Virus record (IMG/VR): IMGVR_UViG_2534681772_000012
Coordinates: 1-10,338 of that record
Source of the DNA: a virus
Taxonomy: Duplodnaviria; Heunggongvirae; Uroviricota; Caudoviricetes
Direction: 5' to 3' (one strand)
DNA length: 10,338 nt
In this document: positions 1 through 10,338 of the stretch, piece after piece
Position numbering within the stretch: position 1 is the first letter of the stretch
Layout: every line of letters begins with the position of its first letter
Translations under genes and position numbers: made by a program
The notes under the pieces: model-generated
Database searches by the model: none
What the model was told of the DNA's origin: nothing
The model's input: only the letters and a program-made list of their open reading frames with translations

Positions 1-70
1 TCACAAAAACGTAACCACACTGCCAATAGCCAGAGAAATATAATTTTTTTTGCGATTTTTTAGAACTGAC

Positions 71-130
71 ACAACGTGAAACAACGAGACACCACGACGA
101 ACAACGGCGAACAATCTGGAACAAACTTGA
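71..130. repeat. Six tandem 10-bp units with ACAACG-like core (ACAACGTGAA/ACAACGAGAC/ACCACGACGA/ACAACGGCGA/ACAATCTGGA/ACAAACTTGA), helical-turn phased; putative protein-binding array upstream of alpA
   Basis: Read directly from sequence: units start every 10 bp from position 71. Function is inferred from the phasing and the position in the AT-rich leader upstream of the alpA-like gene. Confidence 0.4.
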
Positions 131-410
131 TTAACATCTGACTGACACCCTAAAAAGTTGATTTTCAGTCGTTTTACTGGCTTTTTGTACATTGGCGAAT
201 CACTCTTAAAAACATGTAAAAAAGGCGTAAAAACAGAATTTTATGCCTTTGCACCACAATGAATTAAAAGAGTTTTTATTCTCATTACCACACTTCTGTA
301 AAATGACCGCCGCCAGTGTTTGCCATTCCATAAACACCCTGACACAATCCGACGCACCACAACACAATAGGACACCAAATAACTCTTTAAGAAATATCAA
401 AGGGGGAATT

Positions 411-599
411 GTGTTAAGCACAGATCGCTTTATACGTGAAAAAGAATGTCAGCAACTTACAGGCCTGAGCCGTTCATGTCGGTACCGCCTGGAAAAAACC
501 GGACAATTCCCATCACGGCGTAAGCTCGGCGGTCGTTCCGTTGGCTGGTCTTTATCCGAAGTTCTGGCATGGAAGGAAAGCTGCGAGGCAGTTCACTAA
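411..599 (+). CDS. alpA: AlpA-family (phage Vis/Xis-like HTH) transcriptional regulator
   Basis: C-terminal 63 aa of ORF 243..599 (MLSTDRFIREKECQQLTGLSRSCRYRLEKTGQFPSRRKLGGRSVGWSLSEVLAWKESC) match the AlpA/Vis family length and HTH pattern. GTG start at 411 follows RBS AGGGGG (401-406); the in-frame extension back to 243 has no RBS and looks like leader. Stop TAA 597-599. Confidence 0.8.
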   Translation: MLSTDRFIREKECQQLTGLSRSCRYRLEKTGQFPSRRKLGGRSVGWSLSEVLAWKESCEAVH

Positions 600-651
600 T
601 CAGGCTGGCGGCACACCGCCGCCACCCATCCACTAATACAGAGATCTAACC

Positions 652-1842
652 ATGAATACTGGATATTCTCCCGAACAAGGGCGGGGCTTCGTTCGTCCTG
701 AAAAACAGAATCTGCAAAATTTTGCCGAAATTATTCCGGTTATTTCCGGCCTTACTGGCGGGAGTGAAACCAATATTGTTAACGCCAGAGCGTTGCAGAT
801 GTTTGATGATAAAAAGGGAGTAAATTTAACTTACACCCCTGACGGCAATCAGAATATGAGCATTATCTCTGAGTCAGGTTTCTACAAACTAATAAAAACA
901 AAAAGCGCCCCGTTCCCGGAGCGCCTTTGTGAACAATTAACCTACTGCGCAAAAAATGAATCTGAGCAGTGGGATTATATCAACCGTGTGGCGAAGCGCC
1001 ACAATTGCCGGATAACAGGCAAAACAAAGGCCACCCGCTACGGTGGCCCCTCGACACAAGCTACACGTTATCCCCAACGCATGAGCATCACCAACAATGC
1101 CACATTTGCGGCTGGTGGGCAATGTGATCAGTCAGATTTGGTTCGTTCCAAGGTTTGCAACGAGAGCTTTTTCCTGTGCTCTTTAAGGAATTTCTCAAGA
1201 GCAAAAGCACATGGCGCGAATCTTTCTGATTCATGCTCTATCTTTCTGCGCCGTCTTTTCCGTGCCGGTGATAATGTTTTGGTCAATTCTTTATCGGTCA
1301 TTGTGTTGTCCTGCATAGCAATGCGCCGTAATACCTTACACCACGGCGCTGATGGTGATTACTCTGGTTCTTTGGTCTTGCGACGCTGGAGTTCTTCGCG
1401 TGCAACGGTGACAAGCTGCCCGATTTCTTCCGCTGCTTTGATGCCGATTTGTTCGACCTTAGCCAGGGCATCCAGTGACGACACAAGGGGATTTTCTCCG
1501 CTGCCTTCTGCTTGGCGGCGGGCTATTTCTCCGCGCATGGCGGTTACGATAAATCCGGCATTGCTTTCGCCGTCCAGCTTAACGGATTCCATCCCTTGCA
1601 TAACATCTAGTGGGACTCTGACAGTTGTCAGTTGTGATTTTGCGTTTTTGTTAGCCGTTGCCATTTCTGAAACTCCTAATCATCGGTGTGTTTCAGTATA
1701 CACAAAAAAAGAAATACAAAAAGCCTTGACGTGTGTTTCATGCGCTCATAACATGAAACACACCAAAAGAATTGTTGAAATACAAAGAGCAACGCCCCGC
1801 AGTGCCGGAAACACATACGGGGCGTCTAACCACCAACGATAG
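652..1842 (+). CDS. Questionable ORF; at most an N-terminal remnant (~652-900) of a disrupted gene, faintly Bro-N/Rha-like (IISESGFYKLI)
   Basis: ATG-to-stop ORF from the track. After ~aa 90 the translation is Ser/Cys/Arg-rich, as expected for an antisense read. It runs antisense to two protein-like minus-strand ORFs and through two minus-oriented terminator hairpins. No convincing RBS before ATG 652. Confidence 0.2.
   Translation: MNTGYSPEQGRGFVRPEKQNLQNFAEIIPVISGLTGGSETNIVNARALQMFDDKKGVNLTYTPDGNQNMSIISESGFYKLIKTKSAPFPERLCEQLTYCAKNESEQWDYINRVAKRHNCRITGKTKATRYGGPSTQATRYPQRMSITNNATFAAGGQCDQSDLVRSKVCNESFFLCSLRNFSRAKAHGANLSDSCSIFLRRLFRAGDNVLVNSLSVIVLSCIAMRRNTLHHGADGDYSGSLVLRRWSSSRATVTSCPISSAALMPICSTLARASSDDTRGFSPLPSAWRRAISPRMAVTINPALLSPSSLTDSIPCITSSGTLTVVSCDFAFLLAVAISETPNHRCVSVYTKKEIQKALTCVSCAHNMKHTKRIVEIQRATPRSAGNTYGASNHQR
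891..924 (-). terminator. Putative rho-independent terminator for minus-strand transcripts
   Basis: GC-rich imperfect hairpin 905-924 (GCGCCCC/GGAGCGC, one mismatch) followed on the minus strand by TTTTTGTTTTTATT (reverse complement of 891-904). Confidence 0.4.
1021..1048 (-). terminator. Putative rho-independent terminator for minus-strand transcripts
   Basis: Perfect 7-bp stem GGCCACC (1029-1035) / GGTGGCC (1042-1048) with a 6-nt loop, followed on the minus strand by TTTGTTTT (reverse complement of 1021-1028); about 80 nt downstream of the stop of minus ORF 1128..1301. Confidence 0.45.
1128..1301 (-). CDS. Small basic hypothetical protein (~57 aa, MTDKELTKTLSPARKRRRRK...)
   Basis: Minus ORF 1128..1316; the second in-frame ATG (1301) has a weak AGGA-like RBS. 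Lies just downstream of the RHH-like regulator and upstream of the minus-strand terminator. Composition is protein-like but there is no recognisable family. Confidence 0.3.
   Translation of the reverse strand: MTDKELTKTLSPARKRRRRKIEHESERFAPCAFALEKFLKEHRKKLSLQTLERTKSD
1359..1664 (-). CDS. Putative ribbon-helix-helix-like DNA-binding regulator (candidate repressor of the island), 101 aa
   Basis: Strong RBS AGGAG 8 nt upstream of ATG (minus 1677-1673). Balanced protein-like composition; N-terminal beta-strand-like TTVRVPLDV followed by helix-loop-helix (MQGMESVKLDGESNAGFIVTAMRGEIARRQ) resembles the RHH/Arc-MetJ fold. Divergent from the rightward operon promoter, the classic regulator position. 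Confidence 0.6.
   Translation of the reverse strand: MATANKNAKSQLTTVRVPLDVMQGMESVKLDGESNAGFIVTAMRGEIARRQAEGSGENPLVSSLDALAKVEQIGIKAAEEIGQLVTVAREELQRRKTKEPE
1686..1763. promoter_or_regulatory. Divergent promoter/operator region: sigma70-like promoter TTGACG (1726-1731) - 17 bp - TAACAT (1749-1754) for the rightward operon, overlapped by a perfect 12-bp inverted repeat GTGTGTTTCATG (1731-1742) / CATGAAACACAC (1752-1763); a third GTGTGTTTCA half-site at 1686-1695; leftward -10-like TATACT (complement of 1696-1701)
   Basis: Hexamers and repeats read directly from the sequence; assignment as operator for the adjacent regulator is inference. Confidence 0.5.
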
Positions 1843-1861
1843 CAAGATTATCGAGGCTGCT

Positions 1862-2068
1862 ATGAGAAATCATACCATACACCCGCAAGGGCGGGACTCG
1901 CACAACCTGAATAAATACATCTGGCGTTTTATCGCCCTGAGTACGGCACAACCGCGCGTGATTACCATTGAGGCCACCAGCGAACAGGAAGCCCGTCAGC
2001 AATCACCGGCTGGCTGCGTGATGGTATTCGCCGCCCGTATTCGTCAGGGGGTGCACCATGTGCAATAA
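1862..2068 (+). CDS. Small protein, probably Icd-like (host cell division inhibitor Icd-like family of P4-type satellites)
   Basis: ATG 1862 with GAGG RBS; the track ORF uses an upstream TTG at 1772. Motif pattern YIWRF-ALS...EATSEQEAR...FAARIRQ matches my memory of Icd-like proteins. Stop overlaps the next start (ATGTGCAATAA). Confidence 0.5.
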   Translation: MRNHTIHPQGRDSHNLNKYIWRFIALSTAQPRVITIEATSEQEARQQSPAGCVMVFAARIRQGVHHVQ

Positions 2069-2525
2069 CACCCGTCCGGACGCAGCCGCCGAAGCAATCA
2101 AAACACTGATTGATGCGCTGATTGATATTTCTGTTATCGCGGACAGGGCGCATAAGCACGCTACCAGTGAAACAGAATATGCCGGGGCTTTCGTTCCTCA
2201 TTCGCTGGCGGTTATGCAACTTAGTGCGGATATGGCGCTGAATGAGGCCAAAGCCATCCTGATTGCTGATTGTGAAAATGGGGGGGGGGTTATGCGTGAT
2301 GATCGTTTTAATTCCCTGAAACAGGAATTTTCCGGCGTTCCTGATGATGCGGCTGATGCGCTTTCGTCAATGCCAGAGCTTATTAGAGCGGCTTTTTTCT
2401 TACTTTCCACGAGAGAATATAAATCAACGGGGCTTGATGTACTGAATATCGCCGCCGATTATGCGGAATATGTGGCAGAGGCGCGTTACAGAAGAAAATT
2501 TCCTGAGGATGTAAGCCATGCGTGA
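2058..2525 (+). CDS. Hypothetical protein (155 aa) containing an internal G10 homopolymer
   Basis: ATG 2058 preceded by AGGGGG RBS; translationally coupled to neighbours on both sides. No recognisable family. G10 run at 2280-2289 encodes GGG and is followed by an in-frame ATG at 2292. Confidence 0.55.
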   Translation: MCNNTRPDAAAEAIKTLIDALIDISVIADRAHKHATSETEYAGAFVPHSLAVMQLSADMALNEAKAILIADCENGGGVMRDDRFNSLKQEFSGVPDDAADALSSMPELIRAAFFLLSTREYKSTGLDVLNIAADYAEYVAEARYRRKFPEDVSHA

Positions 2526-2751
2526 TATTTACCACGAAACAATAGACCGCGCATTTCTTGCACTTTCTCACAGTGAAAACATGCTGGAAATATTGCGCAT
2601 ATGGCTTGAAACACTTGGCGACAATGAACGCGACAAACAAAAATCAAGAATTGCCACGGCATTAATAACGCTTCTTGAGCCTGTAATAATGGAACTGCAA
2701 GAAATAGATCTATTGCACGACAGATATAAAGAACAGCACACCGGAGAATAA
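2518..2751 (+). CDS. Hypothetical protein (77 aa)
   Basis: ATG 2518 overlaps the upstream stop by 8 nt; GAGGA RBS; protein-like composition; no recognisable family. Confidence 0.55.
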   Translation: MRDIYHETIDRAFLALSHSENMLEILRIWLETLGDNERDKQKSRIATALITLLEPVIMELQEIDLLHDRYKEQHTGE

Positions 2752-2756
2752 AAATA

Positions 2757-3056
2757 ATGAAACTTAAATATTCTGGCTTAACTGCCAGTGGCAACACTCA
2801 CCCTAAATTTACGCGCGGTGATATTTACCGCGACCAGTACGGCGGCACGGTAATGATTAAGGGCGTGGAAGAACGGCGCGTAATCTACCGCCGTGAAGGT
2901 TACGAATATGATTGCGTGATGCCTGTTTATCAGTTCCGGTGTGATTTTTCTCTGGTACAGACCGCGCCGCATAACGTGCCCACCAGCAACGCCAGGGCAC
3001 GGGCAAACATCCAGAAGCTGAAAACCATGATTAACGGATTCAGGGGCAAGAAATGA
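2757..3056 (+). CDS. Hypothetical protein (99 aa)
   Basis: ATG 2757 with GGAG RBS; stop overlaps the rep start (ATGA at 3053-3056); no recognisable family. Confidence 0.55.
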   Translation: MKLKYSGLTASGNTHPKFTRGDIYRDQYGGTVMIKGVEERRVIYRREGYEYDCVMPVYQFRCDFSLVQTAPHNVPTSNARARANIQKLKTMINGFRGKK

Positions 3057-4468
3057 AAAGCGCACCGAACTTAAAAAAACAGCCTTACGACAAAATGACC
3101 GAAGTCATTATTTTTGCGGGTAGTGATGCCTGGGCGCACGCGAAACAATGGCAGGAGCAGGACGGGCGACTTGCTGGCGACAATGTTCCGCCTGTATGGC
3201 TGGGAGACAGCCAGCTTGACGAACTGGCAGGCCTGAAAATTATCGACGATGGTCGCTATTGTGTCCGACTGTACAAGGCAGGCCACATCAAGCCGTCAAA
3301 TATTAATGCCATCGGGCAAAAGCTGGCGGCGGCAGGTGTACGGGATGCGAATTATTACCCTGAGGGAATGCACAGTCAGAAGCTGGAGAACTGGCACGAC
3401 TACCTGCAACGGATCCGCGAACAGGCAGAGCGCGGGGAAATACTTACTGACGAGCAATACAGCCAGCGAAAAACCACGCTACCAATGAGCATTGGATCTG
3501 CAGGGTACGACACACAGCTTGATTATGTCGTTAAGGGCGTGATTCCGGCTAATTCATTGTGCAGCACATACGGCGCGAGCGGTTCCTATAAATCGTTCCT
3601 CGCGTGTTCCTGGGCGTGTCATGTTGCCACGGGTCGCCACTGGGGAGGTCGCAGGGTGGCGCATGGTTCGGTGATGTATGTTGTCGGTGAAGGTGGCATT
3701 GGTGTCCCCCGCCGTATCAAGGCATGGGAAATCGTTAATGATGAACGGGTGAAAAATCTGTACCTGGTAAACCGCCCGATTTTTCCTGCAGCCCAGTTTG
3801 ATGTTGATGAAATGGTTATCGCATCCCGCCAGGTTGAACGGGAAACGGGTAAACCGGTACGCATGATTATTCTGGATACGCTGGCGCGTTGCTTTGGCGG
3901 TAATGATGAAAATGACGCGCGGGATATGGGGGCGTTTATCCGTGGATGTGACGAACTGAAACGACGCACAGGGGCCACGGTGCTGGTGGTTCACCATTCC
4001 GGCAAGGATGAAACAAAAGGGGCGCGTGGTTCCAGTGCATTTCGTGCATCTCTGGACGCTGAGTACCGGATCCGCCGCGAAGGCGCGGACAGTGAGGCCC
4101 TGGTTATCTCCTGCACCAAAATGAAGGACGCGGAGGAACTGAAAGAGGCTGCATATGATTTACGTGTGGTGGAGCTTTTTACCGACGCTGACAAGGAGTT
4201 AATCACGTCGCTGGTGGTTGTGGATAAGCCGCGCCCACCCGTTGAACTGGAGCGCATCGAGGAGGCCGGAAACAAGACGGAGAATCACGCCGCACTATGG
4301 GGCTGTATCCGGTCACGCACACAGCGCGGCGATAAATGCACTATCCCGTTGTTGCGCGATGATATGAAAAAGCTGGGGTATGAGATGAAAAACTTCCGGC
4401 GCTGGCTGTACAAGCTGGAAAGAGACGGCGTTATCGCTATTGACGGTGATGATGTGCGCCCACTGTAA
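3053..4468 (+). CDS. Replication initiator / RepA-like RecA-fold (AAA_25-type) ATPase, 471 aa; no primase domain recognised
   Basis: Walker A-like GASGSYKS and Walker B-like hydrophobic run ending in D (RMIILDTL) in the central region; RBS AGGGG; an iteron array follows the stop codon immediately, as in PICI/SaPI-type pri-rep/ori units. Confidence 0.8.
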   Translation: MKSAPNLKKQPYDKMTEVIIFAGSDAWAHAKQWQEQDGRLAGDNVPPVWLGDSQLDELAGLKIIDDGRYCVRLYKAGHIKPSNINAIGQKLAAAGVRDANYYPEGMHSQKLENWHDYLQRIREQAERGEILTDEQYSQRKTTLPMSIGSAGYDTQLDYVVKGVIPANSLCSTYGASGSYKSFLACSWACHVATGRHWGGRRVAHGSVMYVVGEGGIGVPRRIKAWEIVNDERVKNLYLVNRPIFPAAQFDVDEMVIASRQVERETGKPVRMIILDTLARCFGGNDENDARDMGAFIRGCDELKRRTGATVLVVHHSGKDETKGARGSSAFRASLDAEYRIRREGADSEALVISCTKMKDAEELKEAAYDLRVVELFTDADKELITSLVVVDKPRPPVELERIEEAGNKTENHAALWGCIRSRTQRGDKCTIPLLRDDMKKLGYEMKNFRRWLYKLERDGVIAIDGDDVRPL

Positions 4469-4669
4469 AAAGTGAGGCGCAAAAGTGAGGGGATAGCAGG
4501 AACTGAACAAAAAGCAACCGCGCCCCTCACTTTTCAATCTGTATATAGGCTCAAAAGTGAGGAATAAAAAACACATTGAAAAACAACATATTAGAATCAC
4601 AAAAAAACAAGGTTGGAAATCATGTGGGGAGCTTAAAAAGTGAGGCGAAAAAGTGGGGAGTAGTGGGGA
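4467..4669. repeat. Putative origin of replication: iterons (consensus AAAAGTGAGG) flanking an AT-rich core
   Basis: Copies at 4467-4477, 4481-4490, 4523-4534 (inverted), 4553-4562, 4635-4645, 4647-4657 (degenerate), plus degenerate 4621-4630 and 4661-4668; AT-rich stretch 4563-4620; directly 3' of rep. Confidence 0.6.
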
Positions 4670-4921
4670 ATGACCAGAAAAAGCAGAGATAAAACAGCAC
4701 CAAAATATCGCGCATTAGACATGACAGAGCACGCCTTAAAGGTGGCAATCAGAACGATAGACCGCCACGCCGGAGAAGGATACGCGAAAGCGCATCCCGA
4801 ACTGATAAGCGCATTCATGACCACGGCGGCGGCAAATTTTGCCACACTGACAGAACGGGAGATTGCCGAAGCGGAACAGGTGACAACCATCAACGTTAAA
4901 ACCGGAGAGCAGACAGCATGA
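4670..4921 (+). CDS. Hypothetical protein (83 aa), translationally coupled to ssb
   Basis: ATG 4670; stop TGA overlaps the ssb ATG (ATGA at 4918-4921); no recognisable family. Confidence 0.5.
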   Translation: MTRKSRDKTAPKYRALDMTEHALKVAIRTIDRHAGEGYAKAHPELISAFMTTAAANFATLTEREIAEAEQVTTINVKTGEQTA

Positions 4922-5340
4922 CAGCACAGATAGCGGCTTACGGGCGGCTGGTGGCTGACCCGCAGTTAAAGACCACCAGCAAGGGTACACAAATGACGAT
5001 GGCGAGTATGGCGGTCCCACTTCCGTGCAGCCAGGCAGATGACGGAACGGCGACGATGTGGTTATCCGTCCTGGCGTTTGGCAGACAGGCCGAAGCACTG
5101 GCAAAGCACCGCAAGGGTGAACTCCTGAGCGTGGCGGGTAACATGCAGGTAAGCCAGTGGACAGGCCAGAACGGCGAAACGCGGCGGGGCTGGCAGGTTA
5201 TCGCAGACAGCGTAATCAGTGCGCGAACGGCGCGACCGGGCGGCAAAAAAGGTCAGCAGGGGCAGGCCACTGACGCACTGAACAGGGCAAAACAACAGTC
5301 GGGGAATGATGATCCGTACGGCGATAATATACCGTTTTAA
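4918..5340 (+). CDS. ssb: Single-stranded DNA-binding protein (short, 140 aa)
   Basis: GGAGA RBS; OB-fold-like N-terminal pattern; Gly/Gln-rich linker; acidic C-terminal tail ...DDPYGDNIPF resembling the SSB signature DDDIPF. Confidence 0.65.
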   Translation: MTAQIAAYGRLVADPQLKTTSKGTQMTMASMAVPLPCSQADDGTATMWLSVLAFGRQAEALAKHRKGELLSVAGNMQVSQWTGQNGETRRGWQVIADSVISARTARPGGKKGQQGQATDALNRAKQQSGNDDPYGDNIPF

Positions 5341-5357
5341 ATTCTGCAAACAAAAAG

Positions 5358-5386
5358 ATGCCGGAAAAAAATAGATTTTCCGGCAT
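5358..5386. terminator. Hairpin with 11-bp perfect stem (ATGCCGGAAAA / TTTTCCGGCAT, 7-nt loop); terminator-like, T-tract only on the minus-strand side
   Basis: Read directly from the sequence, 18 nt after the ssb stop. On the minus strand it is followed by CTTTTTGTTTG; on the plus strand there is no T-tract. Confidence 0.4.
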
Positions 5387-5551
5387 GCTACATAAATCCC
5401 GACCAAAGGAAGTAAATACATTAACACGAATTATCAGCACTGAAGTTGTCACGGCATATTTTATACAACATTGCACTTGGTTGCATGTATTCGCATAGCA
5501 GACATCGGTAATAGAATATATTCACAATTATTTGTAATGAATGTAAAGAGG

Positions 5552-6598
5552 ATGAGTATGGTTGATTTATATTCGCCTACACAGCTTGTGCAGGTGGCTA
5601 ATGCTGAAGATGTGCAAAAAAAATTAAATGCGTTGTTTACCAGTTTGTTTTTCACTCGCTCGGTAATGTTTGAATCGAGAGACATTATTCTTGATACGAT
5701 CGACGATCCAAATATCCCGATCGCGGCGTTTTGCTCTCCTATGGTGGGCAGTAAAGTTTCACGAGATGAGGGATACGAATCAAAAACAATTCGCCCTGGC
5801 TATATGAAACCGAAAAGCAGCATTGATCCAAATAAGTTAGCTGTGCGCCCTGCTGGTGTATCACCTGAACAATACAATGCTTTTGGGGCGCGTAATATTA
5901 AAGTTAAACAGGCGATTGTAAATCAGGCTAAAGCTATACGTGCACGTATTGAATGGCTTGCTGTTCAGGCAATCACAACGGGGAAAAATATCATTGAGGG
6001 CGATGGTATTGAACGTTATGAACTGGACTGGAATATAAAACCACAAAATATTATCACGCAGTCTGGCGGTGCTGAGTGGTCAGGTAAGGATAAAGAAACT
6101 TTTGATCCAAATGATGATATTGAGAGCTACGCAGAATTTAGTGAGGGCGTCACTAATATCATCATTATGGGCGGTAATGTATGGAAGAAATACCGTTCAT
6201 TCAGAGCGATAAAAGAGGCTCTGGATACCCGCCGTGGTTCTAATTCCGAACTGGAAACGGCCCTTAAAGACCTTGGTGATTCGGTGAGTTTTAAAGGGTA
6301 TATGGGCGATGTTGCGATTGTTGTTTACAGCGGACGTTATACCGACGAGGACGGAACTGAAAAACATTTCCTTGATCCTGATTTGATGGTGCTTGGCAAT
6401 ACGGCTCTTCAGGGGATTGTCGCCTATGGCGGTATTCAGGATCCGGAGCTAACCCGAATGGGGCTGACTAAAGCCGAACTTGCACCGAAAAACTATATTG
6501 TGCCTGGTGATCCGGCTATTGAGTACGTACAAACGCACTCTGCACCACAGCCAATACCGGCCCGCATCAATCGTTTTGTTACCGTTCGCATTGGCTAA
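5552..6598 (+). CDS. Lambda gpE-like major capsid protein
   Basis: Translation from MSMVDLYSPTQL aligns along its length with my memory of lambda gpE (MSMYTTAQLL..., ITQSGG-EWS-DK-T-DP-DDIE-YA, TRRGSNSELETA-KDLG, GDVAIVVYSG-Y, MVLGNT, GDPA). Start 5552 by homology; ATG 5558 has better RBS spacing from AAGAGG. Stop TAA 6596-6598. Confidence 0.85.
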   Translation: MSMVDLYSPTQLVQVANAEDVQKKLNALFTSLFFTRSVMFESRDIILDTIDDPNIPIAAFCSPMVGSKVSRDEGYESKTIRPGYMKPKSSIDPNKLAVRPAGVSPEQYNAFGARNIKVKQAIVNQAKAIRARIEWLAVQAITTGKNIIEGDGIERYELDWNIKPQNIITQSGGAEWSGKDKETFDPNDDIESYAEFSEGVTNIIIMGGNVWKKYRSFRAIKEALDTRRGSNSELETALKDLGDSVSFKGYMGDVAIVVYSGRYTDEDGTEKHFLDPDLMVLGNTALQGIVAYGGIQDPELTRMGLTKAELAPKNYIVPGDPAIEYVQTHSAPQPIPARINRFVTVRIG

Positions 6599-6607
6599 GG
6601 GGGAGCA

Positions 6608-6850
6608 ATGGCTACTCATTACACTGAACTCATGTCTGGCACTGAAGCACTGGTTACTACGCTGGGGATATTTTCAGCCAATAAAGGGGTAATACCTGCG
6701 TTTACGCCACTGATGCAGGAAGATGCAACTGGTGCGCTAGTGGTATGGGATGGAACGAGCGCAGGCAAAGCGGTTTATGTTTCCGCTGTACAAATCGACA
6801 CTGAACCGCCCCGGGAATCCTGGAGACTAAACTCCCTGAGAAAGAGGTAA
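6608..6850 (+). pseudogene. Lambda gpD-like head decoration protein gene, 3'-truncated by IS629-like insertion
   Basis: RBS AGGGGGAG; TPLMQEDATGALVVWDGTSAGKAVYVSAV matches the lambda gpD region [29 protein letters not shown]. Homology ends at 6801, where the IS inverted repeat begins; the last ~16 codons of the ORF are IS-derived. Confidence 0.7.
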
Positions 6851-6855
6851 ACAGG

Positions 6856-7182
6856 ATGACTAAAAATACTCGTTTTTCCCCCGAAGTCCGTCAGAGGGCG
6901 ATTCGTATGGTTCTGGAAAGTCAGGGCGAATATGACTCACAGTGGGCGGCAATTTGTTCCATTGCCCCAAAGATTGACTGTACACCGGAGACTCTGCGTG
7001 TCTGGGTACGCCAGCATGAGCGGGATACCGGAGGCGGTGATGGCGGGCTCACCACCGCTGAACGTCAGCGTCTGAAAGAGCTGGAACGTGAAAATCGTGA
7101 ACTGCGCCGCAGTAACGATATCCTTCGCCAGGCTTCCGCTTATTTTGCGAAGGCGGAGTTCGACCGCCTCTGGAAAAAGTGA
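6856..7182 (+). CDS. IS3-family transposase OrfA (HTH/leucine-zipper part), IS629-like
   Basis: 108 aa, [30 protein letters not shown]...[36 protein letters not shown]; ends at the frameshift window. Confidence 0.9.
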
Positions 7183-8069
7183 TGCCACTGCTGGATAAGC
7201 TGCGTAAGCTGTACGGGGTCGGACCGGTATGCAGTGAACTACATATTGCCCCGTCAACGTATTACCACTGTCAGCAACAGCGACATCATCCTGATAAACG
7301 CAGTGCCCGTGCGCAGCGCGATGACTGGCTGAAGAAAGAGATACTGCGCGTATACGATGGGAATCATCAGGTATACGGTGTGCGTAAAGTCTGGCGTCAG
7401 TTGTTACGGGAAGGAATCAGGGTAGCCAGATGTACAGTGGCGCGCCTCATGGCGGTTATGGGACTTGCCGGTGTTCTCCGGGGTAAAAAGGTCCGCACTA
7501 CCGTCAGCCGGAAAGCCGTTGCCGCAGGCGACCGCGTAAACCGTCAGTTTGTGGCAGAACGTCCTGACCAGTTGTGGGTGGCTGATTTTACTTACGTCAG
7601 CACATGGCAGGGGGTCGTCTATGTGGCGTTCATCATTGATGTGTTTGCCGGATACATCGTGGGGTGGCGGGTCTCATCGTCTATGGAAACGACATTCGTG
7701 CTGGATGCTCTGGAGCAGGCGTTATGGGCCCGTCGACCGTCCGGCACAGTCCATCACAGTGATAAAGGTTCTCAGTATGTATCGCTGGCCTACACACAGC
7801 GGCTTAAGGAAGCCGGATTACTGGCATCAACAGGAAGTACTGGTGACTCGTATGACAACGCGATGGCGGAGAGCATCAATGGCCTTTACAAAGCGGAGGT
7901 AATACACCGTAAGAGCTGGAAAAACCGGACAGAAGTGGAACTGGCCACACTCACGTGGGTGGACTGGTATAACAATCGACGATTGCTGGAAAGGCTGGGC
8001 CATATCCCACCGGCAGAAGCAGAAAAAGCTTATTATGCTTCCATCGGAAACGATGATCTGGCAGCCTGA
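7179..8069 (+). CDS. IS3-family transposase OrfB (DDE catalytic domain), IS629-like; expressed as OrfAB fusion by -1 frameshift
   Basis: 296 aa with DDE-type motifs ([31 protein letters not shown]); overlaps orfA in the -1 frame. Confidence 0.9.
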
Positions 8070-8123
8070 GTTCACAGATAAAACACTCTCCAGGAAACCC
8101 GGGGCGGTTCACAAAGTGTTTTT

Positions 8124-9698
8124 TCATCGCACACCGCCTTTTTCCTGATGAAAGCGGCAACGAGCAATCACGGATTGAATTTCAAATTGTGTGGTTTCAT
8201 GGATTGAAATAAGTGGATTGCGGGCGTTACCAACACTGTCTGAAATGGAAATCAATTCATCGACTTCTTTAACTACACTCTCCAGCACCGCCTGATGGTC
8301 ACCATCAGTAAAGGGGCGGAAATACAGGCAACCGTAGCAGCAGCGTACTTCACTGAATGGGCATTTGCCATCATCTCTGGAGCAACCGCCAATCCCATCA
8401 TGCAACTCATCACCGATTATGCCGACCACGCGCTGGTCTTGCCATTTCGTTGAAGAGGTCAGTTCACCAGTCAACATCATAGCCACCATGTTTTGCCATA
8501 CCGGATTGATACCCAATGCTTTGGCTCGAATCAGTGCCAGTGCAGGCGTCGCCAGAATGTAATACTTGGCAACAGTAAGGGAGCTATGTCCCAGAATATG
8601 CGCAATTTCCTCGGCGCTGACCCCTTGCATAGCCAGTGAATGCCCCACGTTGTGGCGCAAGTCGGTCGGGGTAATGGTTGGCAAAGCCGCTTCGCCACGC
8701 TTTACGGCTGCCTGATAATCTGGCGGACTGAAACAGAGGAAGGCCTTGTTAATCGCTCTGGACACATTAAACGGTGCAGAGTTACTAAATTCAAATAGCT
8801 TGCCATCAGGTTTTAGTTGCGCTCGCTCGATATAGTGCCTAATCAACGCGCCGATTTCAGCTGGAATCGCCAAAAACAGACGTTCAGTCGTTACGTGCCG
8901 CTGTTTGGCGTAAGGAAGGAGTAAGCTATATCGTATTAATCCGGTTTCGGAGTTTCGGGTATCAATACGTAAATCTTTTACCGCCAGCTTGGCCAGTTGT
9001 ACCGGTCGGGCACCGGTGACATACGTCAGTCCCAGAATTACTGCATCTCGCATGGTGTTCAGACTGTAGTTTTCGCCATACCGAATCGCCACAGCCATTT
9101 CAAACAAGCCTTTACTGATCATGTTTTTTTCGAGGGGATCCAGAACATGATCAATTTCCTGATAGATTCCCCAGTCATGGGAGTGCGGGCGAGGGATGAA
9201 TTCGAGGTCTTCATAATCTTCGAGGGTAAAACCAGGGAATGCTTCGGTACAGAGGATTTTTAGGCCGAAAATGATAAAGTAGAAATATTGAGGTTTAATT
9301 TCCTGAGTTTCGAGGTAATCTTTCAACACCGTAAAAGTGAAAGCAGATTTGCTTATGCAATGATCAGTTGCCAAAGACCACGCATGGAGTACCCCAGGAA
9401 CCTGAGCTGGACACTTGGCAGATGCATAATGGAAGCAAATATATTTGATTAATTGGTTGCTGATTTTATCCTGACGAAAGTGGGCATAGCAGCGGCTTCC
9501 TGAATAATCGAATACCCAACTGTCACTTGTTGAGCTGATATATTTGTCATCAAAATGATCTGCCGATTTAAGATAAATACTAACTGGTATATTAACCTTT
9601 AAAATACTCTCAACAAATACAGGTGTGTAAATGTTGCTGTTCGACGCATTTAACTGTTTATTGATTCGACTCATATGCACTCCATTCATCGCATACAT
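8124..9698 (-). CDS. Tyrosine recombinase / phage-integrase-family protein, large (516-524 aa) with Cys-rich C-terminal region
   Basis: Catalytic-motif pattern in the central part: GARPVQLAKL (Arg box), DLRHNVGHSLAM (H-x-x-R), LGHSSLTVAKYYI (His/Tyr nucleophile box). The best RBS (GGAG) precedes the third in-frame ATG at 9674, so the true start may be 9674. Stop is 12 bp from the IS629 end. Confidence 0.75.
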   Translation of the reverse strand: MYAMNGVHMSRINKQLNASNSNIYTPVFVESILKVNIPVSIYLKSADHFDDKYISSTSDSWVFDYSGSRCYAHFRQDKISNQLIKYICFHYASAKCPAQVPGVLHAWSLATDHCISKSAFTFTVLKDYLETQEIKPQYFYFIIFGLKILCTEAFPGFTLEDYEDLEFIPRPHSHDWGIYQEIDHVLDPLEKNMISKGLFEMAVAIRYGENYSLNTMRDAVILGLTYVTGARPVQLAKLAVKDLRIDTRNSETGLIRYSLLLPYAKQRHVTTERLFLAIPAEIGALIRHYIERAQLKPDGKLFEFSNSAPFNVSRAINKAFLCFSPPDYQAAVKRGEAALPTITPTDLRHNVGHSLAMQGVSAEEIAHILGHSSLTVAKYYILATPALALIRAKALGINPVWQNMVAMMLTGELTSSTKWQDQRVVGIIGDELHDGIGGCSRDDGKCPFSEVRCCYGCLYFRPFTDGDHQAVLESVVKEVDELISISDSVGNARNPLISIHETTQFEIQSVIARCRFHQEKGGVR

Positions 9699-10085
9699 GG
9701 GAAAAGGTTGATTTCAGGGCTTCGTTATCAATCACAATTCGCTGAAGATTGGCCGTATTAGCCTGCTGAGATAGAAATCTTTTAGCGTAAAGATCAGGCA
9801 TATGGCTATTGTGACTCCAACCGCCAAGTAGCCGTAATTCATCCTTGGCTTCATCCATCAATCCAACGATAGAAAAGTCTATGGCTGCCAAGTGTGAGTT
9901 GGCCTTAATTTTTTGAAGTTTATCACGATAAATACGTTGAAGTGTTAAATAAGCCCAAGTATGCCGCGTTATATGAGGCGAGATGCTTTCAATGGCATCA
10001 TAATATTCATCTTTTTTATATTCAGGATACTGCACACTCATAATGTCATCAATACGGGTAAAGATATCATAGACTGCATGGTATG
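9658..10085 (-). pseudogene. C-terminal catalytic fragment of a second tyrosine recombinase, 5'-truncated by IS2
   Basis: PHITRHTWAYLTL (H-x-x-R box) and LLGGWSHNSHMPDLYAKRF (His...Tyr box) present; N-terminal domains absent. The first ~9 codons of track ORF 9658..10113 (MSGDSGGQS) are encoded by the IS2 terminal repeat. Its 3' end overlaps the start of the downstream recombinase. Confidence 0.65.
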
Positions 10086-10338
10086 TAGACTGGCCCCCTG
10101 AATCTCCAGACAACCAATATCACTTAAATAAGTGATAGTCTTAATACTAGTTTTTAGACTAGTCATTGGAGAGCAGATGATTGATGTCTTAGGACCGGAG
10201 AAACGCAGACGGCGTACTACACAGGAAAAGATCGCTATTGTTCAGCAGAGTTTTGAACCGGGAATGACGGTCTCCCTTGTTGCCCGGCAACACGGTGTGG
10301 CAGCCAGCCAGTTATTTCTCTGGCGCAAGCAATACCAG
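10086..10338 (+). mobile_element. IS2 (IS3 family) left end, partial; continues beyond the window
   Basis: TAGACTGGCCCCCTGAATCTCCAGACAACCAATATCACTTAAATAAGTGATAGTC... matches my memory of the IS2 terminal repeat and leader; followed by the IS2 orfA start. Confidence 0.85.
10177..10338 (+). CDS. insC: IS2 transposase OrfA (InsC-like), 5' partial at window edge
   Basis: ATG 10177; translation [54 protein letters not shown]... matches IS2 OrfA as I recall it; ORF open to the window end. Confidence 0.8.

What the first reader, a model, noticed from the sequence alone, without database searches (positions are those of the whole stretch)
411..6801. Satellite-like replication/regulation module that carries its own lambda-type capsid and decoration genes but no other virion genes
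The gene order alpA - divergent small regulator - coupled small-protein cassette - RepA-like ATPase - iteron ori - ssb is the hallmark core of phage satellites (PICI/P4-like). Directly downstream sit a lambda gpE-like major capsid gene and a gpD-like decoration gene, with no portal, protease/scaffold, terminase or tail genes in between or upstream. P4-type satellites redirect helper capsid size with Sid/Psu, and capsid-forming PICIs carry HK97-type head modules; a satellite supplying only E/D-like shell proteins would hijack a lambdoid helper differently, for example by building or remodelling a shell from its own E/D paralogues. The element is decayed here: D is truncated and no int or att site is in the window.
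Basis: partly seen in the sequence, partly recalled or inferred. Interest (0 to 1): 0.8.

Follow-up and report, generated by a model that had tools for sequence, protein, structure and literature searches.

The report
Truncated E. coli phage satellite (PICI)
This is the left two-thirds of a common, already described kind of E. coli phage satellite (a phage-inducible chromosomal island); its capsid-like and decoration-like genes are a standard feature of that family, and here the element has been cut off by an insertion sequence.

Summary
They make up the left 6.8 kb of a 10.4-kb Gram-negative PICI.

Intact copies exist. ETEC TW10590 is 100% identical over window 1-6801; KSC1031 and E110019 also carry it. 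They lie between abgR and smrA, bounded by an att core that an empty site confirms. Their gene order is int, alpA, ylcI-like, icd-like, small ORFs, DUF4222, RepA helicase, iteron ori, ssb, E-like capsid gene, D-like decoration gene, AlpA-like HTH, exact lambda cosN, Nu1-like small terminase. They have no portal, protease, large terminase, tail or lysis genes.

This is the published "Type A PICI" layout: int, alpA, pri-rep, capsid, terS. The left module is about 95% identical to the reference PICI EcCIDi14. Capsid and decoration homologues in EcCICFT073 were described and knocked out in 2018, with no effect on transfer or interference.

In the window, an IS1203/IS629-type element (6802-8111) truncates D and removes cos, terS and attR.

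New observations are modest. The E/D cassette is no more than 44% identical to any phage capsid protein. Its gene order is reversed relative to lambda. It is under strong purifying selection (dN/dS 0.03-0.10). Its function is still unresolved.

The parts
1..43 (+). 3' end of the PICI integrase gene (last 13 codons plus stop); the rest lies upstream of the window
   Evidence: Window 2-43 translates to HKNVTTLPIAREI*, identical to the C-terminus of the 409-aa tyrosine integrase of TW10590. That integrase matches Pfam Arm-DNA-bind_3 and Phage_integrase.
411..599 (+). alpA (PICI activator/excisionase-type HTH)
   Evidence: Pfam Phage_AlpA, E 2.7e-18. Identical protein WP_001352456.1 in TW10590, KSC1031, E110019 and EcCIDi14.
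1128..1316 (-). small leftward ORF (62 aa), function unknown
   Evidence: phrog_21027, E 1.9e-14. Annotated as hypothetical in E110019. Terminator-like hairpins lie downstream at 1051-1026 and 928-901.
   Evidence: RefSeq name; phrog_6522, E 1.1e-63; no Pfam hit.
1862..2068 (+). Icd-like small protein (68 aa), first gene of the rightward operon
   Evidence: RefSeq 'host cell division inhibitor Icd-like'. phrog_6196, E 6.3e-46, labelled transcriptional repressor.
2058..2751 (+). two overlapping small ORFs (155 aa and 77 aa), function unknown
   Evidence: Full-length matches to phrog_2512 (E 1e-86) and phrog_2196 (E 8.4e-42).
2757..3056 (+). DUF4222 protein, overlapping the start of the replicase gene
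   Evidence: Pfam DUF4222, E 2.1e-24.
3053..4468 (+). replication initiator/helicase (the pri-rep equivalent): RepA-type AAA_25 ATPase with a primase-like N-terminus
   Evidence: Pfam AAA_25, E 3.2e-44. phrog_2850, E 7.9e-252; helicase-primase PHROGs on residues 152-389; a primase PHROG on residues 3-135.
4468..4658 (.). iteron-type replication origin immediately 3' of the replicase gene
   Evidence: Six copies of AAAAGTGRGG (five direct, one inverted) against 0.05 expected. The position matches the ori of Gram-negative PICIs (PMC6092414).
4670..4921 (+). 83-aa ORF overlapping the start of ssb, function unknown
   Evidence: phrog_1231, E 8.2e-51.
4918..5340 (+). single-stranded DNA-binding protein
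   Evidence: Pfam SSB, E 9.7e-16.
5558..6598 (+). lambda gpE-type major capsid protein homologue (346 aa): the 'capsid morphogenesis' core marker of enterobacterial PICIs
   Evidence: Pfam Phage_cap_E, E 1.3e-41. PDB 3BQW, E 3e-121, and lambda gpE 7VI9, E 2.4e-77. 41% identical to lambda E; best of 437 phage records is no more than 44%. dN/dS 0.03-0.09.
6608..6801 (+). 5' 64 codons of a gpD/SHP-type head decoration gene, truncated by the IS
   Evidence: Pfam HDPD, E 1.6e-5 for the fragment and 4.6e-15 for the intact 113-aa relative. PDB head decoration proteins 1TD0, E 3e-16, and lambda gpD, E 1.6e-12. The junction is visible.
6802..8111 (+). IS1203/IS629-type IS3-family element. It is not part of the satellite. 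It removes the 3' end of D, the AlpA-like HTH gene, cos, terS and attR.
   Evidence: 25-nt inverted repeats at 6802-6826 and 8087-8111. orfA and orfB with HTH_Tnp_1 and rve domains. ALIL frameshift pseudoknot, 116 bits. No matching target-site duplication.

Best explanation
Window 1-6801 is the integrase-proximal two-thirds of a Gram-negative phage-inducible chromosomal island. It belongs to the E. coli EcCI family and to 'Type A' in the SatelliteFinder scheme.

How the intact element works is inferred from experiments on the related EcCICFT073:
1. A lambda-like cos helper phage triggers alpA.
2. Int excises the island at a short att core.
3. The RepA-type initiator/helicase fires the adjacent iteron origin, with the island's own SSB.
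4. The island's lambda-type cos site and its own Nu1-like small terminase recruit the helper's large terminase.
5. Satellite concatemers are packaged into helper-made virions. Four copies total 41.8 kb, about 86% of a lambda genome.

The E-like and D-like genes are the family's usual 'capsid morphogenesis' cassette. They are intact proteins under purifying selection. Most likely they enter or modify the helper's head shell, in the manner of SaPIbov5 Ccm, with some cognate helper. This step is inferred, not shown, and the cassette is dispensable in the one system tested.

The copy in the window is dead as a satellite. An IS1203/IS629-type element cuts D at codon 64. Everything to its right has been replaced by unrelated DNA: the rest of D, the AlpA-like HTH gene, cos, terS and attR.
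For: - Near-identical intact islands. TW10590 is 100% identical over window 1-6801 and KSC1031 is 99.9%.
- Mobile-element boundaries. The empty abgR-smrA site in strain 7A, compared with the occupied site, gives attB ACATTATTAATATCGTGAATGAATAATC, a shared core AATATCGTGA and an island of 10,442 bp.
- All five published PICI core markers are present in intact copies (definition in PMC10085698): int, alpA, pri-rep, capsid and terS of Phage_Nu1 type, E 8.7e-24.
- Forbidden markers are absent. No portal, connector, tail or holin genes appear.
- Link to a reference PICI. The int-to-ssb module is about 95% identical to EcCIDi14, with identical Int and AlpA proteins. EcCIDi14 is named as a PICI lying in an IS110 gene in PMC10111431, and that is the context seen.
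- Origin. Six iterons immediately 3' of rep, as described for Gram-negative PICIs.
- Packaging. An exact lambda cosN, GGGCGGCGACCT, with lambda-like flanks lies 134 bp upstream of terS. TerS is 38% identical to Nu1 over the full length.
- E/D cassette. It is found in 397 of 5426 complete E. coli genomes. It occurs in PICIs with other integrases, replicases and att sites. dN/dS is 0.03-0.10.
- Published precedent. The capsid and decoration genes of EcCICFT073 are described in PMC6092414. A PICI capsid gene is present in 21 of 29 reference Gram-negative PICIs.
Against: - The window itself holds only 13 codons of int and no att, cos or terS. Membership therefore rests on intact relatives.
- Helper dependence, induction, replication from the iterons and packaging were not and cannot be tested here.
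- No helper phage is identified for this island type. In PMC6092414 the two TerS-encoding E. coli islands tested (IHE3034 and 18098) transferred poorly or not at all from their native strains.
- The proposed shell-modifying role of E/D conflicts with the only knock-outs available. Deleting c1499 or c1500 left transfer at about 10^3-10^4 per ml and did not relieve lambda interference. EcCICFT073 is packaged in phage-sized capsids.
Confidence: 0.93

Rival explanations
1. A previously unrecognised satellite class that supplies only E/D shell proteins and builds or remodels its own capsid from them.
For: - E and D are full-length homologues of lambda gpE and gpD.
- They are strongly constrained.
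- They are far from every phage capsid protein, at no more than 44% identity.
- They are arranged E then D, the opposite of lambda.
- No portal or scaffold genes accompany them.
Against: - The architecture is the published Type A PICI.
- Capsid and decoration genes were already noted and deleted in EcCICFT073 without effect.
- That PICI uses phage-sized capsids.
- Intact copies also carry cos and terS.

As a new class, this is excluded. As a function for E/D, it remains open.
Confidence: 0.03
2. An internal fragment of a decayed lambdoid prophage head region.
For: E, D and (in relatives) cosN and Nu1 are all lambda-type.
Against: - Intact relatives are 10.4-kb islands flanked directly by abgR and smrA, with an empty-site-verified att.
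- No A, W, B, C, Nu3, FI, FII or tail genes are present.
- The gene order E, D, cos, Nu1 is not lambda's Nu1, A, W, B, C, D, E.
- The proteins are only 38-41% identical to lambda's.
Confidence: 0.01
3. A remnant of a capsid-forming PICI (cfPICI) that has lost most of its head module.
For: It encodes a capsid protein, a small terminase and a PICI-type left arm. cfPICI and PICI left arms are known to be exchanged (PMC10085698).
Against: - Hundreds of intact copies have the same compact layout, with no terL, portal, protease or head-tail adaptor genes and no room for them.
- Published phylogenies separate PICI from cfPICI capsid and terS genes.
Confidence: 0.02
4. A P4-like satellite.
For: It has int, alpA and a primase/helicase-type replicase, is about 10 kb long and lives in an enterobacterial host.
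Against: - No Psu, Sid, Delta or Epsilon homologues turned up in the Pfam or PHROG scans of any ORF.
- The capsid-related genes are lambda E/D-type, not Sid/Psu.
- The cos site is lambda-type.
Confidence: 0.01

Closest known systems
EcCIDi14, a reference Gram-negative PICI of E. coli 'clone D i14' (Fillol-Salom et al. 2018, as cited in PMC10111431)
   Same: Identical Int and AlpA proteins. About 95% DNA identity from int to ssb (window 1-5340). The same downstream layout: capsid, decoration, one small gene, terS, 93-aa ORF.
   Different: The E/D cassette is a different allele family (55% and 53% amino-acid identity). The gene between D and terS is unrelated. The integration site differs: an IS110 gene versus the abgR-smrA intergenic region. 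The window copy is truncated.
EcCICFT073, the experimentally characterised E. coli PICI (PMC6092414, PMC6739421)
   Same: An int, alpA, pri-rep, ori backbone. A capsid homologue (c1499) plus a head-decoration homologue (c1500). Lambda-type cosN. Lambda and phi80-type helpers.
   Different: EcCICFT073 has no terS. It redirects the helper's TerS with RppA (c1503). Relatives of the window island instead encode their own Nu1-like TerS and an AlpA-like HTH protein.
Type A PICI of SatelliteFinder (PMC10085698)
   Same: All five core components are present in the published order, the forbidden components are absent, and the size is close to the 9.5-kb median.
   Different: Nothing in intact relatives. 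The window copy lacks terS and nearly all of int.
Helper-embedded PICIs such as 11capE (PMC10111431)
   Same: The same E/D cassette, 95.6% nucleotide identity, occurs in a PICI inserted in the E gene of a lambda-like prophage in strain MRSN346647. The att identity block is also 10 bp.
   Different: The window island type integrates in the chromosome (abgR-smrA). It uses a different integrase and replicase and carries terS, whereas the embedded one carries a TIR-domain gene instead.
SaPIbov5 Ccm (a satellite-encoded capsid-protein homologue that redirects capsid size)
   Same: A satellite carries a paralogue of its helper's major capsid protein without a portal or scaffold (mentioned).
   Different: A Gram-positive HK97-type system. 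Ccm's role in small-capsid formation is demonstrated. For the E. coli E/D pair no phenotype has been found.

Membership tests
Gram-negative PICI (Type A, SatelliteFinder / Fillol-Salom 2018) | Tyrosine integrase at the left end | tested here: met
   A 409-aa Int with Arm-DNA-bind_3 and Phage_integrase domains in intact relatives. Its last 13 codons are at window 2-43.
Gram-negative PICI (Type A, SatelliteFinder / Fillol-Salom 2018) | AlpA-type regulator next to int, with a mostly unidirectional operon | tested here: met
   Phage_AlpA, E 2.7e-18, at 411-599+. Genes from 1862 to 6801 are all on the + strand.
Gram-negative PICI (Type A, SatelliteFinder / Fillol-Salom 2018) | Primase-replicase module followed by a replication origin | tested here: met
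   AAA_25/RepA helicase with a primase-like N-terminus. Six iterons immediately 3' of it. Origin activity itself was not tested.
Gram-negative PICI (Type A, SatelliteFinder / Fillol-Salom 2018) | Capsid morphogenesis gene (capsid-protein homologue) | tested here: met
   Phage_cap_E, E 1.3e-41. PDB lambda gpE, E 2.4e-77.
Gram-negative PICI (Type A, SatelliteFinder / Fillol-Salom 2018) | Small terminase homologue | tested here: met
   Present in intact relatives (Phage_Nu1, E 8.7e-24; 38% identity to lambda Nu1). Absent from the window because of the IS truncation.
Gram-negative PICI (Type A, SatelliteFinder / Fillol-Salom 2018) | No tail, holin, portal or head-tail connector genes; size about 10-15 kb | tested here: met
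   Gene maps and domain scans of intact islands. Island length 10,442 bp.
Gram-negative PICI (Type A, SatelliteFinder / Fillol-Salom 2018) | Specific att site with flanking repeats; the element is absent from the same site in other strains | tested here: met
   Comparison of empty and occupied sites. Whether prophages ever occupy this site was not examined.
Gram-negative PICI (Type A, SatelliteFinder / Fillol-Salom 2018) | Helper-phage-dependent induction, replication, packaging and high-frequency transfer | not testable with these tools
   Needs induction and transduction experiments. Shown only for the related EcCICFT073.
Capsid-forming PICI (cfPICI) | Own large terminase, portal, protease and head-tail adaptor/connector genes | tested here: not met
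   None found in intact relatives.
P4-like satellite | psu-delta-sid operon and epsilon | tested here: not met
   No such hits for any ORF in the Pfam or PHROG scans.
Lambdoid prophage head region | Contiguous Nu1-A-W-B-C/Nu3-D-E-FI-FII followed by tail genes | tested here: not met
   Only E, D, cos and Nu1-like are present, in a different order, inside a 10.4-kb island flanked by abgR and smrA.

The most novel reading that the evidence does not exclude
The E/D cassette is a long-resident, satellite-specific capsid module. With a cognate lambda-type helper not yet tested, its products would assemble on the helper's portal and scaffold into a satellite-specified or hybrid shell, stabilised by the satellite's own D. 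That would make these islands a functional intermediate between classical PICIs and capsid-forming PICIs. The lack of phenotype in EcCICFT073 would then reflect the wrong helper or redundancy.
Probability: 0.25. Interest if true: 0.5.

Novelty: already known. Interest (0 to 1): 0.12.

Why it matters
For genome annotation, this window should be labelled as a defective, IS-truncated PICI in an ETEC-like background, not as a new kind of element.

The one question of wider interest is already recognised in the field: what do the capsid and decoration homologues carried by most enterobacterial PICIs do? This analysis adds three points:
- Both genes are under strong purifying selection.
- They are no more than 44% identical to any sequenced phage capsid protein.
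- They move as an E-then-D cassette between PICIs with different integrases and replicases.

These points make a real, conserved function likely, despite the negative knock-out results published for EcCICFT073.

Tried and rejected
- The 26-bp direct repeat CGGTGTAGTTAATGGTGTAGTTAATT was first taken as the att site. The empty-site comparison showed it lies inside the island near both ends. The true crossover core is AATATCGTGA, 137 bp further out on the left and 86 bp further out on the right. The same doubled 12-mer occurs in PICIs at other att sites.
- Whether the 127-aa gene between D and terS is an Rpp homologue. No PDB match to RppC was found. It matches an AlpA-family structure, 8C3T (E 1.6e-10), and Pfam AlpA. 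It is unrelated to the 137-aa gene at the same position in EcCIDi14.
- A search for a c4/CI-type antisense RNA near the icd-like gene. Rfam gave nothing at gathering or E≤1 thresholds apart from the IS frameshift pseudoknot and one chance-level hit.
- Whether the window's exact arrangement exists in a complete genome. No record covers at least 80% of the window, and the D-IS junction is absent from all 5426 genomes.
- Regional identity of TerS against Nu1. The DNA-binding N-terminus is least conserved (28%) and residues 101-140 most conserved (50%). The pattern is too weak to carry an argument.
- The consensus promoter scan was uninformative: 11 sites against 9.2 expected.

Full report
**What is in the window**

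- alpA lies at 411-599+ (Phage_AlpA, E 2.7e-18).
- A divergent 101-aa YlcI/YnfO-family ORF lies at 1359-1664-. It has no Pfam hit, so a regulator role is unverified. A 62-aa ORF sits behind it, followed by two terminator-like hairpins.
- A rightward run of overlapping small genes follows: Icd-like 1862-2068, a 155-aa ORF 2058-2525, a 77-aa ORF 2518-2751 and DUF4222 2757-3056.
- This run leads into a RepA/AAA_25 protein at 3053-4468 (E 3.2e-44) with a primase-like N-terminus.
- Immediately 3' are six copies of AAAAGTGRGG at 4468-4658, where 0.05 are expected by chance.
- Next come an 83-aa ORF and SSB (4918-5340).
- A lambda gpE-type capsid gene follows. Its true start is 5558 and it encodes 346 aa (Phage_cap_E, E 1.3e-41).
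- Last is the first 64 codons of a gpD-type decoration gene from 6608.
- At 6802 a 1310-bp IS1203/IS629-type IS3-family element begins. It has 25-nt inverted repeats and the ALIL frameshift pseudoknot, and it ends at 8111.

**Intact relatives**

Megablast against 5426 complete E. coli genomes finds window 1-6801 at 100% identity in ETEC TW10590 and 99.9% in KSC1031. No genome carries the whole window.

In those strains and in E110019 the segment is part of a compact island between abgR and smrA. The gene order is int, alpA, ylcI-like, icd-like, small ORFs, DUF4222, repA, hypothetical, ssb, capsid, decoration (113 aa), a 127-aa AlpA-like HTH protein, a 180-aa small terminase and a 93-aa ORF. 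There are no portal, protease, scaffold, large terminase, head-completion, tail or lysis genes.

I compared the occupied site with an empty abgR-smrA site, which most E. coli genomes have. This gives attB ACATTATTAATATCGTGAATGAATAATC, a shared exact core AATATCGTGA at both junctions, and an island length of 10,442 bp.

**Packaging signals lost from the window**

In intact copies the 200-bp gap upstream of the small terminase gene holds an exact lambda cosN, GGGCGGCGACCT. The flanks are lambda-like on both sides, and the sequence then diverges where lambda has cosB. The terminase subunit is Phage_Nu1 type (E 8.7e-24) and 38% identical to lambda Nu1 over its full length.

So the intact satellite carries E, D, cos and Nu1 equivalents. 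"No other virion genes" is a consequence of the truncation. Four island copies total 41.8 kb, 86% of a lambda genome. I take the lambda genome length of 48.5 kb and its packaging limits from general knowledge. This fits the published observation that an E. coli PICI is packaged as phage-length concatemers in full-sized heads (PMC10111431; PMC6739421).

**Comparison with what is known**

The architecture is the published one.

- SatelliteFinder defines PICIs by five core components: integrase, alpA-type regulator, primase-replicase, capsid morphogenesis gene and small terminase. Tail, holin, portal and connector genes are forbidden. "Type A" elements, which have all five, are 97% from E. coli (PMC10085698). 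Intact relatives of this window meet all of these criteria.
- The int-to-ssb module is about 95% identical to the island of E. coli clone D i14, with identical Int and AlpA proteins. That island sits in an IS110 transposase gene and is the reference PICI EcCIDi14 (PMC10111431).
- EcCICFT073 was reported in 2018 to encode a putative capsid protein (c1499) and a head decoration protein (c1500). Deleting either did not relieve interference with lambda. Transfer stayed at about 10^3-10^4 per ml, as in the parent (PMC6092414).
- A crystal structure already exists for this protein lineage. PDB 3BQW ("putative capsid protein of prophage") is about 95% identical to the EcCIDi14 capsid protein and matches the window protein at E 3e-121. 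From memory, 3BQW comes from CFT073.

The finding is therefore a decayed member of a known family, and its striking feature is a textbook trait of that family.

**What this analysis adds about the E/D cassette**

- It is far from any phage. Among 437 phage records with a match, none reaches 60% identity. The best are 41-44%, including lambda. D is 40% identical to lambda gpD.
- The order is E then D, the reverse of lambda's D then E. It is not a recently captured block.
- There are at least two deep allele families. The window type and the EcCIDi14/CFT073 type are 55% identical for E and 53% for D. E and D co-vary between them.
- The window-type cassette occurs in 397 of 5426 complete genomes.
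- It is shared by PICIs with different integrases, att sites and replicases. One is at the cspD-clpS site with a primase-type replicase. Another is a helper-embedded PICI inside the E gene of a lambda-like prophage.
- Nei-Gojobori dN/dS is 0.03-0.09 for E and 0.06-0.10 for D at unsaturated distances. Both proteins are maintained by selection even though they are dispensable in the one laboratory system tested.
- Identity to lambda E is highest at lambda residues 171-290 (57-60%) and lowest in the N-terminal 120 residues (26-29%). I do not draw a structural conclusion from this.

**Mechanism and how sure each step is**

- Shown by sequence: the parts list, the att and empty site, the iterons, cosN, and the homologies.
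- Inferred from experiments on EcCICFT073: helper-triggered alpA expression, Int-dependent excision, rep/ori-dependent replication, and packaging by the helper's terminase into helper virions.
- Inferred from analogy with SaPI TerS, as described: the island's own Nu1-like TerS redirects the helper's large terminase to the island's cos.
- Unresolved: the role of E/D. My best guess, at about 0.4, is a helper-specific shell-modifying or shell-forming role of the Ccm type.
- Alternatives for E/D are a back-up coat supply, which is attractive for embedded PICIs that split the helper's E gene, or a decoy that poisons assembly of non-helper lambdoid phages. None of these can be separated with sequence data.

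**State of the copy in the window**

The IS has hybrid flanks. Its left flank is the D gene (…ATCGACAC, where the intact gene continues AGCGAAAAA). Its right flank, CAAAGTG…, is in TW10590 the right flank of an IS copy with a clean 3-bp CAA duplication, about 197 kb away. That copy sits next to two overlapping tyrosine-recombinase genes and a filamentous prophage.

The window's IS is therefore the product of recombination between two IS copies, or an assembly join through a repeat. The D-IS junction is found in none of the 5426 complete genomes. Either way, this copy lacks cos, terS and attR and cannot be mobilised as a satellite.

**Verdict**

The interpretation as a satellite is right. The claim of an unusual or new strategy is not supported, because the arrangement is the defining layout of enterobacterial Type A PICIs and has been described, catalogued, knocked out and crystallised.

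Novelty: already known. Interest: low (0.12). The residual open question, what PICI-encoded E/D proteins do, is real but is not raised for the first time by this window.

Noticed in passing
window 6802-8111 (flanks 6795-6801 and 8112-8118); L004 7700-9015: The IS1203/IS629-type element has no matching target-site duplication. Its left flank is the PICI D gene. Its right flank is the one seen in TW10590 beside an IS copy with a clean CAA duplication about 197 kb away. This points to IS-IS recombination (a deletion or inversion) or an assembly join. The D-IS junction is absent from all 5426 complete E. coli genomes.
   Followed up: partly
window 8124-10113 (- strand) and 10086-10338: Two overlapping tyrosine-recombinase genes: one of 524 aa and a second ORF at 9658-10113. 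They are unrelated to the PICI. In TW10590 this pair lies beside a filamentous prophage (Zot-like, pII-like replication protein, secretin). In the window the second recombinase gene is cut at about 10086 by another IS3-family element that runs to the window end.
   Followed up: partly
L002 10768-10791 and 20977-21000; also L001, L003, L006, L007, L009: A doubled 12-mer, GGTGTAGTTAAT x2, lies inside the island near both ends. It is conserved in PICIs that use different chromosomal att sites, so these are probably integrase arm-type binding sites. It resembles the 'doubled DNA motif' that PMC10111431 reports as unique to helper-embedded PICIs, yet here it occurs in chromosomally integrated ones.
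   Followed up: partly
window 2058-2525: The window has a single 155-aa ORF that matches phrog_2512 over its full length. A 1-bp difference splits it into two annotated genes in TW10590 and KSC1031. The window version looks like the intact form.
   Followed up: partly
L008 2124-12700 (E. coli MRSN346647): A helper-embedded PICI sits inside the major capsid gene of a lambda-like prophage. It carries the same E/D cassette (95.6% nucleotide identity) and a TIR-domain protein gene where other islands have cos and terS. The TIR gene may be a defence cargo.
   Followed up: no
L003 6814-8043 versus L002 10814-12043: Identical integrase proteins (WP_001352457.1) serve islands at two different sites: an IS110-family transposase gene in clone D i14 and the abgR-smrA intergenic region in TW10590 and E110019. 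Whether the two targets share the AATATCGTGA core was not checked.
   Followed up: no
window 600-1127: About 530 bp between alpA and the leftward genes has no credible ORF and no Rfam match. It contains two strong terminator-like hairpins on the - strand (1051-1026 and 928-901).
   Followed up: partly
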